IMG/VR virus record: IMGVR_UViG_2551306526_000001
Reading direction: 5' to 3' (one strand)
DNA: 20,028 bases
From: a virus
Taxonomy: Duplodnaviria > Heunggongvirae > Uroviricota > Caudoviricetes
This document shows, piece after piece, positions 3,001 to 6,000 of the stretch (positions within the stretch are counted from its first letter, which is position 1; the number at the start of each line of letters is the position of its first letter). Position numbers: made by a program.

Positions 3001-6000
3001 GCTGGTTAACGCGTAAGGCGCGTCGCCAGGGTAACCGCAATGCGTCGAATGTTTATCAGCTTAACGTTGCGAAGCTTCAGGCAGCGGCATTTTCTCAACT
3101 GTCAGATTCTGACCCGTCAAAATCTGACGCATCAAAATCTGACGCATCAAAATCTGACCCGTCAAAATTTGATGCGTCGAAATCTGGCAAAAAAGCGGGT
3201 TTTCACCCGTCAGAATCTGGCGGGGATCCGTCAGTAAAATCAAAACATGATCCGTCAGATAAAAAACCTTCTCGTCCGGACGCTTCGCAACCGGACACGC
3301 AGACGGCTGAACAGGATTTTTTAACTCGCCATCCTGATGCGGTTGTATTCAGCCCTAAAAAGCGCCAGTGGGGGACGCAGGATGATTTGACCTGCGCACA
3401 GTGGCTCTGGAAAAAAATCATCGCCCTGTACGAGCAGGCTGCCGAATGTGACGGCGAGGTGGTTCGTCCCAAAGAACCGAACTGGACAGCCTGGGCAAAC
3501 GAAATTCGCCTGATGTGTGTACAGGATGGGCGTACACACAAACAAATCTGCGAGATGTACAGCCGTGTCAGCCGCGATCCGTTCTGGTGCCGTAACGTGC
3601 TCAGCCCGTCGAAGCTGCGGGAAAAATGGGATGAGCTTTCCCTGCGCTTATCGCCGTCCGTCAGCACGTACACCGAACAACGCGAGGACCCGTACTTCGA
3701 AGCCAGTTACGACAACGTGGACTACAGCCAGATCCCGGCAGGATTCAGAGGGTGATCATGAGTCTGTTAAATGACGTTCAGAAATTCATTGAAGCCCATC
3801 CGGGGTGTACTTCCGGAGACATTGCGGATGCTTTTGCAGGTTACTCACGGCAGCGCGTTCTGCAGTCTGCAAGCAAGTTACGTCAGAGTGGGCGTGTGGC
3901 TCACCGTTGTGAAGGAGATACACGCAGACATTTCCCGCGCCTGACTGAGAGAGCGCAGGAACCGGAACCACAACCAGTTCGATAAACCAGACCTGTGCGC
4001 AATTTCTATGTCGGCACTAACGATCCACGGGTGATTTTGTGCCTGACCCGCCAGGCTGAAGAACTGGAGTCCAGGGGCTTATACCGTCGTGCTGCAACCG
4101 TGTGGATGGCGGCATTCCGTGAAAGCCACTCCCAGCCAGAACGAAACAATTTTCTGGCACGTCGTGAGCTGTGTTTACGGAAAAGCAGCAAGCGCGCTGT
4201 ATCGAGTGATGAGTGGTATCTGTCAGGGAATTACGTGGGGGCGTAATGACGACGTTAACTCAATGCCAGCAGCAGGTGCTGGATATGCTGATTTCTTATC
4301 AGAAAGAGCGTGGCTTTCCGCCAACCAATCAGGAGGTGGCAACCATGCTGGGATACCGTTCAGTGAATGCAGCGGTAGAGCATCTTCGTGCACTGGAGAA
4401 AAAAGGCGTCATCACGATAAAGCGTGGCGTGGCCCGGGGGATAACGCTTCATACCGCGGTGAAGGACGACGACAGCGAGGCGGTCGGGATTATCCGCGCA
4501 CTGCTTGCCGGTGAGGAAAACGCAAAGCTGCGTGCAACCCACTGGTTACATGAGAGGGGCCTGAAAGTATGAAGCTGATCCTGCCTTTTCCGCCCAGCGT
4601 GAACACGTACTGGCGACACCCCAACAAAGGGGCGTTTGCTGGTAAGAGCCTGATAAGCGCGGCGGGGCGAAAATTCCAGAGCGCAGCGTGCGCAGCAATA
4701 GTTGAGCAGTTACGTCGTCTGCCGAAACCAACGTCGGCACCTGCTTCAGTGGAGATCGTGTTGTTTCCTCCGGATAACCGGATCCGCGATCTGGACAACT
4801 ATAACAAGGCGCTGTTTGACGCCCTGACCCACGCGGGTGTGTGGGAAGACGACAGCCAAGTGAAAAGAATGTTGGTGGAGTGGGGACCGGTTATCCCGGA
4901 AGGGAAGGTCGAGATCACTATCAGTAAGTACGAGAAACCGGCGGGTGCAGCCGCCTGATTAAGAGGAGAAACGAAGTATGAATAATCTGATGGTCATTGA
5001 TGGTATTGAAGTTCGTCGTGATGCTTATGGGCGTTACAGCCTGAACGATCTGCACAGGGCTGCCGGTTCTCTGGATAAGCATAAGCCTGCATTCTGGCTC
5101 CGCAATGAGCAAACTGAACGTTTAATAAGCGAGTTGCAGATTTGCAACTCGGTCAATATAGAGCCAGTTAACGTTATTCGTGCGCGGAAATAACCAGGGG
5201 ACGTATGTCTGCAAAGAACGTGGTGTATGCCTATGCAATGTGGATCAGCCCGTCATTCCATCTGAAGGTGATCCGTACTTTCGACATGGTAACCAGCGCA
5301 CCGGAAAAATTATCCGGACAGGCTGCTGACAAGATGCAGGCTGGTGTGATTCTGCTGGACTTTATGCGCCGGGAATTAAACCTGTCTAACTCTTCAGTGC
5401 TTGGTGCCTGTCAGAAACTCCAGGAGGCTGTTGGTTTACCGAATCTGGCACCGCGCTATGCCATTGATGCTCCTGCTGACGCGCCTGATGGCTCAAGCCG
5501 CCCCACGCTGTCACTGAGTGCACTGCTGAAGCAGTATGGTATCCGCCTGACAGCTAATCAGGCATATCACCAGATGGTGAAGCTGGGGATCGTCGAGCAG
5601 CGCGAACGATACAGCCGTACCGCGATTAACAACATCAAAAAATTCTGGTCGCTGACAGCGAAAGGCTGCATGTTCGGCAAGAATATCACCAGTCCCGCAA
5701 ATCCGCGCGAGACGCAGCCGCATTTCTTCGAATCCCGATTCCCTGAGCTGTTAAAGCTGCTCGATACCGTTCATTGAGGTGACCGTGAGAGCACTACTGA
5801 CCCCTGAAGTTGCCCCGCGTATGGGGATCGTATTGTTCAGGCCAGGTTCAGAGTTGATGCCCCTGTTTATGCAGGGGCGTGTCCTGCTGGAGCCTGAGCC
5901 GGAACGTTATTCATCTTTCGCCAGTGGTGCAGTTCCGGCGGCATCACAACCGCTGGCGGATGATCCTGCCGTTCGGGCCGTGTTCCGCAATGAGGCAGTG

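What the first reader, a model, noticed from the sequence alone, without database searches (positions are those of the whole stretch)
3102..3250. Replication origin iterons embedded in the initiator gene and encoding an SKSDASKSD peptide repeat
Six tandem 15-bp units (TCAAAATCTGACGCA-like, each with TCA…TGA dyad symmetry) plus degenerate copies and an A-rich tract occur inside the O-like gene, translating into a low-complexity linker. This mirrors lambda, where ori iterons lie within O, but the repeat sequence and number differ, implying a distinct initiator specificity.
Basis: partly seen in the sequence, partly recalled or inferred. Interest (0 to 1): 0.45.

Follow-up and report, generated by a model that had tools for sequence, protein, structure and literature searches.

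The report
Phage replication origin inside initiator gene
The 15-base repeats are almost certainly the replication origin of a common E. coli/Shigella prophage, lying inside the gene for the initiator protein that binds them as in phage lambda; this is an uncharacterised example of a well-known arrangement.

Summary
Six consecutive 15-bp units sit at 3101-3188 and a seventh at 3209-3221. Each holds a 13-bp near-palindrome, GTCAAAATCTGAC. The pattern TCARAWTYTGR occurs nowhere else in the 20-kb window (0.29 matches expected by chance).

The host gene (2799-3755) encodes a winged-helix N-domain (HTH_36), a predicted disordered linker, and a C-domain homologous to lambda O and phi80 gp15. The repeats encode the linker. 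The least stable 40-mer of the gene follows them at gene position 435; in lambda it is at 436.

- **DNA-level constraint:** codon identity at conserved residues is 0.77-0.96 in the repeat region and 0.32-0.51 in both flanking domains.
- **Palindrome, not peptide:** Ser/Phe/Cys substitutions are tolerated where they keep or perfect the palindrome.
- **Co-variation:** among 42 loci sharing this C-domain, 38 carry an array at the same place. Its unit and period (15, 22, 23 or 24 bp) follow the N-domain class, not the C-domain.
- **Frame-independence:** the 22- and 23-bp arrays cycle through all three reading frames.

Function is inferred, not shown. No helicase loader gene lies beside the initiator, so helicase recruitment is unknown. 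Verdict: a new member of a known kind, of modest interest.

The parts
2799..3755 (+). Initiator gene (318 aa), an O-type replication initiator of the SfII/SfIV/CPS-53 (yfdO) kind
   Evidence: ORF. PHROG phrog_391 'replication initiation O-like', E 2.5e-135. 96-97% nucleotide identity to phages Kati, SfIV and SfII. At least 80% of the gene is present in 1577 of 5426 complete E. coli genomes.
2799..3095 (+). N-terminal winged-helix DNA-binding domain (aa 1-99), the presumed iteron reader
   Evidence: Pfam HTH_36, E 4.4e-11. The AlphaFold model shows helices followed by a beta-hairpin wing over aa 3-99. Foldseek best matches are MarR-type winged-helix proteins, some solved with DNA.
3101..3188 (.). 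Six consecutive 15-bp iterons. Each is a 13-bp near-palindrome GTCAAAATCTGAC (half-sites GTCA/TGAC) followed by a 2-bp spacer
   Evidence: The weight matrix of 35 units from 6 homologues is.
3189..3208 (.). Spacer holding an A6 tract and the small dyad GCGGGTTTTCACCCG
   Evidence: Sequence. Hairpin listed. The segment (codons GGT TTT CAC CC) is conserved in class homologues.
3209..3221 (.). Seventh, separated iteron GTCAGAATCTGGC
   Evidence: Present in all class homologues.
3225..3273 (.). A/T-rich, least stable stretch of the gene, with two GATC-headed repeats (3225-3240 and 3249-3264); the presumed unwinding region
   Evidence: The nearest-neighbour stability minimum within the gene is at 3233-3273 (z 2.9), gene position 435 against 436 in lambda O. 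The repeat GATCCRTCAGWWAAAA occurs twice against 0.06 expected.
3300..3653 (+). C-terminal O-type domain (aa 168-285)
   Evidence: tblastn finds lambda, 933W and H-19B O at 36-39% identity, E 1e-19. blastp to lambda O gives E 6e-26 and to phi80 gp15 E 4e-25. pLDDT is 83-97.
3680..3755 (+). Conserved C-terminal tail (...EDPYFEASYDNVDYSQIPAGFRG)
   Evidence: The last 76 bp are 96-97% identical in SfV, mEp460, Stx2 and cdtI phages whose initiator genes give no other megablast match to this one. The tail type correlates with the kind of neighbouring gene.

Best explanation
The array is the replication origin of this lambdoid prophage, embedded in the linker-coding part of its own initiator gene.

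- **Inferred step 1:** dimers of the initiator's N-terminal winged-helix domain bind the seven 13-bp palindromes (six at 15-bp spacing, one 33 bp further on).
- **Inferred step 2:** the resulting multi-dimer complex destabilises the adjacent A/T-rich stretch (3225-3273).
- **Inferred step 3:** the C-terminal O-type domain and tail bring in the replicative helicase.

Shown here: the repeats are real and unique to this spot, and they are constrained as DNA rather than as peptide. Their type co-varies with the N-terminal domain across the family. Their position and polarity relative to the unstable region and the C-domain match lambda and phi80. The encoded peptide is a predicted disordered linker.

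Not shown: binding, cis-acting origin activity, and how the helicase is recruited, since no P-type or DnaC-type loader gene lies next to the initiator.
For: **1. Uniqueness.** The motif occurs 11 times (both strands), all within 3102-3220, against 0.29 expected.

**2. DNA-level constraint.** In six comparisons with homologues (N-domain identity 63-90%), codon identity at identical residues is 0.77-0.96 in aa 99-160. It is 0.36-0.49 in the N-domain and 0.32-0.51 in the C-domain. Pooled, that is 192/221 against 186/433 and 189/407. Amino-acid identity in the linker is lower than in the N-domain in all six comparisons.

**3. Information content follows the palindrome, not the codons.** Third codon positions 6 and 12 of the unit carry 1.81 and 1.41 bits. 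The spacer codon and the second position of the second Ser codon vary. TCT to TTT (Ser to Phe) yields the perfect palindrome GTCAAAATTTGAC. Ser codons in the linker are 88% TCA/TCT against 30% elsewhere in these genes.

**4. Family-wide arrays.** 38 of 42 loci from the C-domain pattern scan and its mosaic phage relatives carry a tandem array in the gene. The density is 1.28 per kb inside the genes against 0.013 per kb in 234 kb of flanks.

**5. Period tracks the N-domain cluster.** It is 15 bp in 12 of 13 members, 23 bp in 10 of 10, 24 bp in 5 of 5 and 22 bp in 5 of 5.
- mEp460_4F5 has a C-domain 99% identical to the window's but a different N-domain and a 23-bp GGTCAAAATGAC array.
- phiNP has the window's N-domain (89% amino-acid identity) and the same 15-bp unit, but an unrelated C-domain (Phg_2220_C).

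**6. Frame-independence.** The 22- and 23-bp arrays run through all three reading frames and give unrelated peptides, so they are DNA elements.

**7. Positional equivalence.**
- Lambda's iterons lie at gene positions about 349-433 with the stability minimum at 436.
- phi80's annotated gp15 binding sites lie at 365-441.
- The window's array lies at 303-423 with the minimum at 435.

**8. Linker disorder.** aa 103-167 have pLDDT below 50, between two confidently folded domains.

**9. Precedent.** Different iterons inside the initiator genes of lambda, P22 and L are described in PMC8022706. Variation between four and six iterons in Stx phages is described in PMC7466680.
Against: - There is no experimental evidence for this replicon. 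I found no accessible paper that describes its origin: the SfIV genome paper does not mention repeats and the SfV paper could not be read.
- The 15-bp period is a multiple of three, so in this class frame-independence cannot be shown directly. A contribution from selection on the peptide cannot be excluded.
- A Salmonella variant listed in 151 blocks of the collection keeps only two units. Some E. coli variants keep one or none (P0015, P0017). The full array is therefore dispensable for keeping a prophage, and how many units are needed for function is unknown.
- No P, DnaC or DnaB gene lies next to the initiator, and no DnaA box lies nearby. The step after unwinding is unexplained.
- The gene immediately downstream carries an in-frame stop, so this copy of the prophage may be decaying.
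Confidence: 0.8

Rival explanations
1. The repeats are only a slippage-prone, low-complexity peptide linker (an SKSDx pentapeptide repeat) with no function as DNA.
For: The period is a multiple of three and the units are always in frame. Copy number varies between relatives in 15-bp steps, as slippage would produce. The encoded segment is predicted to be disordered.
Against: Synonymous sites are far more conserved here than in the flanking domains, while amino acids are less conserved. Ser, Phe and Cys (and Tyr in an adjacent L010 sub-array) alternate at a position where only the nucleotide context is kept, and third codon positions carry as much information as the first two. Sister initiators carry arrays with 22- and 23-bp periods that cross all three frames. 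The array type follows the DNA-binding domain.
Confidence: 0.04
2. The units are binding sites for the initiator but serve mainly for autoregulation, copy control or exclusion of related phages, while replication starts elsewhere.
For: Iterons of plasmids do both jobs (established knowledge). Cloned lambda ori regions inhibit phages with the lambda-type replication region (abstract of PMC3349717, listed). Nothing computed here tells binding sites apart from an origin.
Against: The least stable DNA of the gene lies directly after the array, in the same order and at the same distance as in lambda. No promoter-like site is found in 2400-4300. No other repeat array or motif copy exists elsewhere in the 20-kb window. 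In the lambda and phi80 homologues the equivalent sites are the origin.
Confidence: 0.1
3. The palindromic units act at the RNA or single-stranded DNA level, as hairpins that pause translation or serve as a single-strand initiation signal.
For: The 181-nt stretch folds much better than shuffled versions as single-stranded DNA: -33 kcal/mol, z = -6.4.
Against: Strong folding follows automatically from any array of palindromes. Individual stems are only 4 bp long. Rfam gives no match here. The co-variation with the type of N-terminal DNA-binding domain is not expected for an RNA signal.
Confidence: 0.03

Closest known systems
ori-lambda within gene O of phage lambda, and the six-iteron variants in Stx phages 933W and P27
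   Same: The C-terminal initiator domain is homologous: 30% identity over aa 70-282 of the window protein, E 6e-26. Repeated dyad-symmetric sites lie in the linker-coding part of the initiator gene. The least stable region follows at the same gene position, 435 against 436. Copy number varies between relatives.
   Different: The N-terminal domain belongs to another Pfam family: HTH_36, not Phage_rep_O. hhalign gives a probability of 0.1%. The units are 13-bp palindromes at 15-bp spacing, seven in number, instead of four units of roughly 17-19 bp at wider spacing. No P gene follows. The C-terminal tail ends in IPAGFRG instead of lambda's ...DWIYGVDL type.
phi80 gene 15 / gene 14 replicon, with four annotated gp15 binding sites inside gene 15
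   Same: The C-domain is 35% identical, E 4e-25. The annotated binding sites lie at gene positions 365-441 and are followed by an A/T-rich stretch. A Pantoea homologue of the window protein is even named 'Replication protein 15' by its source.
   Different: The phi80 N-domain is Phage_rep_O. Its sites are TTCCCGAAAACGGGAA-like at about 21-bp spacing. A P-like gene 14 follows.
P22 gene 18 and phage L gene 18 origins
   Same: Initiator-specific repeats lie inside the initiator gene. The authors of PMC8022706 conclude that each initiator binds its own iterons.
   Different: The repeat sequences differ. Those phages carry a DnaB-type helicase gene (gene 12) next to the initiator, and this one does not.
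Iteron origins of theta plasmids (RepA, pi and TrfA types)
   Same: There is an array of initiator-specific repeats next to an A/T-rich region, and the initiator is a winged-helix protein.
   Different: The array is inside the coding sequence. There is no DnaA box. The spacing is 15 bp rather than about two helical turns. The initiator has a single winged-helix domain plus an O-type C-domain.

Membership tests
Lambdoid O-type initiator with intragenic origin (lambda O / phi80 gp15 kind) | C-terminal O-type domain | tested here: met
   blastp to lambda O gives E 6e-26 and to phi80 gp15 E 4e-25. tblastn finds O of lambda, 933W and H-19B at E 1e-19.
Lambdoid O-type initiator with intragenic origin (lambda O / phi80 gp15 kind) | N-terminal domain of the Phage_rep_O family (PF04492) | tested here: not met
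   Pfam finds HTH_36 and no PF04492, whereas lambda O and phi80 gp15 both match PF04492. hhalign of the N-domain alignment against the lambda O N-terminus gives a probability of 0.1%. The fold is still a winged helix.
Lambdoid O-type initiator with intragenic origin (lambda O / phi80 gp15 kind) | Four or more dyad-symmetric repeats inside the initiator gene, in the stretch between the two domains | tested here: met
   Seven units lie at 3101-3221, which is aa 102-141, inside the low-confidence segment aa 103-167.
Lambdoid O-type initiator with intragenic origin (lambda O / phi80 gp15 kind) | Easily melted A/T-rich region directly downstream of the repeats | tested here: met
   The stability minimum within the gene lies at 3233-3273, z 2.9. 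The same arrangement is seen in lambda and in 7 of 8 further relatives examined.
Lambdoid O-type initiator with intragenic origin (lambda O / phi80 gp15 kind) | Repeat sequence specific to the initiator's DNA-binding domain | tested here: met
   Period and unit follow the N-domain cluster and not the C-domain across 42 loci.
Lambdoid O-type initiator with intragenic origin (lambda O / phi80 gp15 kind) | Helicase loader gene (P type) immediately downstream | tested here: not met
   The downstream ORFs are PerC-like, a LexA DNA-binding domain protein and RusA. Relatives with a lambda-like tail do have Phage_lambda_P next door.
Lambdoid O-type initiator with intragenic origin (lambda O / phi80 gp15 kind) | Initiator binds the repeats, and the region acts in cis as an origin | not testable with these tools
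   This needs binding assays, an ori-plasmid assay or marker-frequency analysis.
Plasmid-type iteron origin | DnaA box(es) beside the iterons | tested here: not met
   The only TTWTNCACA match in the window is at 15206, about 12 kb away.
Plasmid-type iteron origin | Iterons spaced at about two helical turns (roughly 20-23 bp) | tested here: not met
   The spacing is 15 bp. Sister classes of the same initiator family do use 22-24 bp.

The most novel reading that the evidence does not exclude
This replicon may be a 'solo' O-type initiator that works without any phage-encoded helicase loader. In this reading its closely packed palindromes build a complex differently shaped from the lambda O-some: at 15-bp spacing, neighbouring dimers sit on nearly opposite faces of the helix. 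The conserved C-terminal tail (...DYSQIPAGFRG) would then recruit a host factor directly. That tail is shared by initiator genes that give no other nucleotide match, and it is mutually exclusive with the lambda-like tail that accompanies P genes.
Probability: 0.25. Interest if true: 0.55.

Novelty: new member of a known kind. Interest (0 to 1): 0.3.

Why it matters
This replicon type is very common. At least 80% of the gene is present in 1577 of 5426 complete E. coli genomes, and it occurs in the Shigella serotype-converting phages SfII and SfIV. Even so, its origin is not annotated in the records seen here.

Placing the origin at 3101-3273 gives a testable map for three things: replication of these prophages, incompatibility or exclusion between related phages, and building ori-plasmids.

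The family comparison is also a clean illustration of a DNA signal dictating a protein linker. One C-domain is joined to several N-domain types, each with its own array. The absence of a loader gene points to an open question about how such initiators recruit the host helicase.

Tried and rejected
- **Rfam:** a scan of the whole window found nothing at the locus; the only match is IS009 at 16524-16722.
- **DnaA boxes:** none near the array.
- **Promoters:** a sigma-70 scan of 2400-4300 found none.
- **PDB sequence search:** only weak MarR-type winged-helix matches, and no solved relative of the C-domain.
- **Pfam and NCBIfam:** no family for the C-domain.
- **Literature:**
  - The SfIV genome paper does not discuss repeats.
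  - The SfV genome paper is not held.
  - A search for 'initiator-solo' found nothing.
  - Papers mentioning yfdO and the YfdR paper gave nothing on the origin.
  - A phi80 literature search was unhelpful, but the phi80 GenBank record supplied annotated gp15 binding sites.
- **Recent transfer of the linker as the cause of the synonymous conservation:** rejected, because amino-acid identity in that segment is lower than in the N-domain in every comparison.
- **Single-linkage clustering of N-domains at E below 1e-5:** it merged distinct classes and was replaced by a threshold of at least 50% identity.
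Full report
**What is there.** The window carries the early-right region of a lambdoid prophage.
- An S24-type repressor lies at 888-1562 on the minus strand.
- A CII/CP76-like gene lies at 1885-2454 and a DUF4222 gene at 2630-2809.
- The ORF in question lies at 2799-3755.
- It is followed by PerC-like ORFs, a LexA DNA-binding domain protein and RusA, and further on by an ORF at 6777-7157 that I take to be the late-gene antiterminator by position (not tested).

The ORF is 96-97% identical at the nucleotide level to genes annotated 'primosomal protein', 'replication protein' or 'DNA replication protein O' in phages Kati, SfIV and SfII. At least 80% of it is present in 1577 of 5426 complete E. 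coli genomes.

**The repeats.**
- Tandem Repeats Finder reports 3108-3186, period 15, 5.3 copies, 85% matches.
- Read as motifs, there are six consecutive 13-bp near-palindromes (GTCAAAATCTGAC and close variants) starting at 3101, 3116, 3131, 3146, 3161 and 3176. A seventh starts at 3209.
- The degenerate pattern TCARAWTYTGR matches only within 3102-3220 in the whole 20-kb window. The expectation is 0.29, and no shuffle out of 100 reaches the observed count.
- The units are in frame and encode LSDSD PSKSD ASKSD ASKSD PSKFD ASKSG.

The feature extends a little further than stated, to about 3273.

**The protein.**
- Pfam finds an HTH_36 winged-helix domain at the N-terminus and nothing for the rest.
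- The AlphaFold model has a winged-helix domain (aa 3-99) and a stretch of very low confidence (aa 103-167). A confident helical C-domain follows (aa 168-285, pLDDT 83-97).
- Foldseek matches for the N-domain are MarR-type winged-helix proteins.
- The C-domain is homologous to the C-terminal half of lambda O. tblastn finds lambda, 933W and H-19B O at 36-39% identity, E 1e-19, and blastp to lambda O gives E 6e-26. It is also homologous to phi80 gp15 (E 4e-25).
- The N-domain shows no detectable sequence similarity to lambda O's. Lambda O and phi80 gp15 match Pfam Phage_rep_O, this protein does not, and a profile comparison gives a probability of 0.1%.

So the gene encodes an O-type C-domain joined to a different DNA-binding domain. 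The repeats encode exactly the disordered linker between the two.

**Position relative to known origins.**
- In the lambda O gene fetched here, the four TCCCTCAAAACGAGGGA-like units lie at gene positions about 349-433 and are followed by the A-rich stretch. That these are the O-binding iterons is established knowledge, restated in PMC8022706.
- In the phi80 record, four gp15 binding sites are annotated at gene positions 365-441, again followed by an A/T-rich stretch.
- In the window the array occupies gene positions 303-423.
- A nearest-neighbour stability scan puts the least stable 40-mer of the gene at 3233-3273, gene position 435 (z 2.9). In lambda O the equivalent minimum is at position 436.
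- The same order, array then stability minimum, is seen in phiNP, mEp460_4F5 and five further relatives. SfV is the exception.
- The unstable stretch contains two GATC-headed repeats, GATCCGTCAG(T/A)(A)AAA, at 3225 and 3249.

**DNA or peptide?** Because the period is a multiple of three, the frame argument cannot be made within this class. I therefore used substitution patterns.
- A codon alignment of the window gene with six homologues (N-domain identity 63-90%) gives the codon identity at identical residues. It is 0.36-0.49 in the N-domain, 0.32-0.51 in the C-domain and 0.77-0.96 in aa 99-160.
- Pooled, that is 186/433, 189/407 and 192/221. Amino-acid identity in that middle segment is lower than in the N-domain in every comparison, which argues against recent transfer of the segment.
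- A weight matrix of 35 units from six genomes gives T-C-A-(A/G)-A-(A/T)-T-(C/T)-T-G-A.
- Third codon positions (unit positions 6 and 12) are among the best conserved. The spacer codon varies freely (GCA, CCG, ACA, ACG and others).
- The second position of the second Ser codon changes to give Phe or Cys. The Phe variant TTT turns the unit into the perfect palindrome GTCAAAATTTGAC.
- Ser codons in the linker are 88% TCA or TCT, against 30% elsewhere in the same genes.

These patterns fit a constrained DNA site and do not fit selection on a peptide.

**Family-wide evidence.** A pattern scan of one genome per species returned 41 loci encoding relatives of the C-domain.
- Taken with the window and three phage relatives found by nucleotide search, 38 of 42 initiator genes carry a tandem array. 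The density is 1.28 arrays per kb, against 0.013 per kb in 234 kb of flanking DNA.
- The arrays lie at gene positions about 290-530, just after the N-domain, and the units have dyad symmetry.
- Clustering the N-domains at 50% identity or more gives four multi-member classes, each with its own period: 15 bp (12 of 13 members, including the window), 23 bp (10 of 10), 24 bp (5 of 5) and 22 bp (5 of 5).
- The C-domain does not predict the array. mEp460_4F5 has a C-domain 99% identical to the window's but a different N-domain and a GGTCAAAATGAC array of period 23.
- Conversely, Citrobacter phage phiNP has the window's N-domain (89% amino-acid identity) and the same 15-bp unit, joined to an unrelated C-domain, Phg_2220_C.
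- In the 22- and 23-bp classes successive copies fall in frames 0, 1 and 2 in turn. They translate to unrelated peptides, for example EVKVN, RSKCT, GQSDL, GRKMT and GSKRH, which shows that they are DNA elements.

This is the co-variation expected if each N-domain reads its own array.

**Copy number.**
- Among 80 viral contigs with an identical N-domain, about 70 encode the 313-aa form, which has one unit fewer than the window.
- Single contigs have one or two units fewer, the same number as the window, or one more, in 15-bp steps.
- A Klebsiella relative has ten units.
- A Salmonella variant listed in 151 blocks of the collection has two.
- A few E. coli variants have one or none.

Variation between four and six iterons is known in Stx phages, where O bound only four of the six efficiently (PMC7466680).

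**Mechanism and what remains inferred.** The best reading is a lambda-like origin.
- Initiator dimers bind the seven palindromes.
- The complex opens the adjacent A/T-rich stretch.
- The C-domain brings in the helicase.

Binding, cis-acting origin activity and the helicase route are all inferred. On the helicase route there is a real gap.
- The window has no P-, DnaC- or DnaB-like gene next to the initiator, and no DnaA box lies nearby.
- Across the family, initiators ending in ...HWNSPEAWENTL or similar (compare lambda's ...DWIYGVDL) are followed by a gene of one conserved type. The three representatives tested match Phage_lambda_P.
- Those ending in ...IPxGFRG, as here, are followed by small winged-helix, PerC-like, DUF977 or DUF1627 genes or methylases. 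In two cases (L024 and L030) the next gene is of one conserved type; the L024 copy, the one tested, is a DnaC/IstB-like ATPase.

**Rivals.**
- A purely peptide-level repeat is contradicted by the substitution patterns and by the frame-crossing arrays of sister classes.
- A role only in autoregulation or exclusion cannot be excluded by computation. It is less likely given the adjacent unstable region and the homology to two replicons whose equivalent sites are the origin.
- An RNA or single-strand hairpin role has only the trivial support that arrays of palindromes fold well (z = -6.4). It does not explain the link to the DNA-binding domain.

**Comparison and novelty.** Lambdoid initiators that carry their own, specificity-matched iterons inside their coding region are textbook knowledge for lambda and phi80. 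PMC8022706 proposes the same for P22 and L. What is added here is the assignment for the SfII/SfIV/CPS-53-type replicon.
- I did not find its origin described or annotated.
- Its differences are an HTH_36 N-domain, 13-bp palindromes at 15-bp spacing and no adjacent loader gene.

This makes it a new member of a known kind. It is of modest interest by itself, with a somewhat more interesting open question about loader-less O-type initiators.

Noticed in passing
window 3680-3755; loci L011-L040, gene ends and next ORFs: The initiator's C-terminal tail tracks its neighbour gene. Tails of the ...HWNSPEAWENTL kind (lambda-like) are followed by Phage_lambda_P genes. Tails of the ...IPxGFRG kind, as in the window, are followed by PerC-like or winged-helix genes, DUF977, DUF1627 or methylases, and in L024 and L030 by a DnaC/IstB-like ATPase. 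This suggests that the tail selects the helicase-loading partner.
   Followed up: partly
window 3680-3755: The last 76 bp of the initiator gene are 96-97% identical in SfV, mEp460, Stx2a/2c and cdtI phages, whose initiator genes give no other megablast match to this one. This could be a mosaic joint or a conserved partner-binding tail that travels with the downstream gene.
   Followed up: no
window 3752-4246: The PerC/yfdN-like gene directly downstream is split by an in-frame TAA at 3983-3985, where SfIV gp42 has Glu (GAA). This may be a sign that this prophage copy is decaying.
   Followed up: partly
window 3225-3264; L014 gene positions 532-569: Two GATC-headed repeats, GATCCGTCAG(T/A)(A)AAA, lie in the unstable stretch. 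They are conserved in relatives whose iterons differ; in L014, TRF finds GATCCGTCAGTAAAAA x2.2. They recall the GATC-headed 13-mers of oriC, a resemblance from memory that was not tested.
   Followed up: partly
L003 gene positions 466-503, and L016, L021, L023, L026-L029, L032, L033, L035, L039: In the initiator classes with 22-24-bp iterons, the array is followed by a 12-bp purine-rich repeat, ACAGAGAATACA, in 2.5-4.8 copies (peptide TENTTEITTEN). It coincides with the stability minimum and is probably the unwinding element of those replicons.
   Followed up: partly
window 3189-3209: An A6 tract and the dyad GCGGGTTTTCACCCG lie between iterons 6 and 7. The dyad scores as a terminator-like hairpin on the minus strand and is conserved in class homologues.
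   Followed up: no
L127 6303-6335; L128 1803-1950: Natural variants exist with only 2 iteron units (Salmonella, listed in 151 blocks of the collection) and with 10 units (Klebsiella). They are ready-made material for asking how many units an origin needs.
   Followed up: partly
window 16524-16722: Rfam match to IS009 (RF02111), 225 bits, on the plus strand.
   Followed up: no
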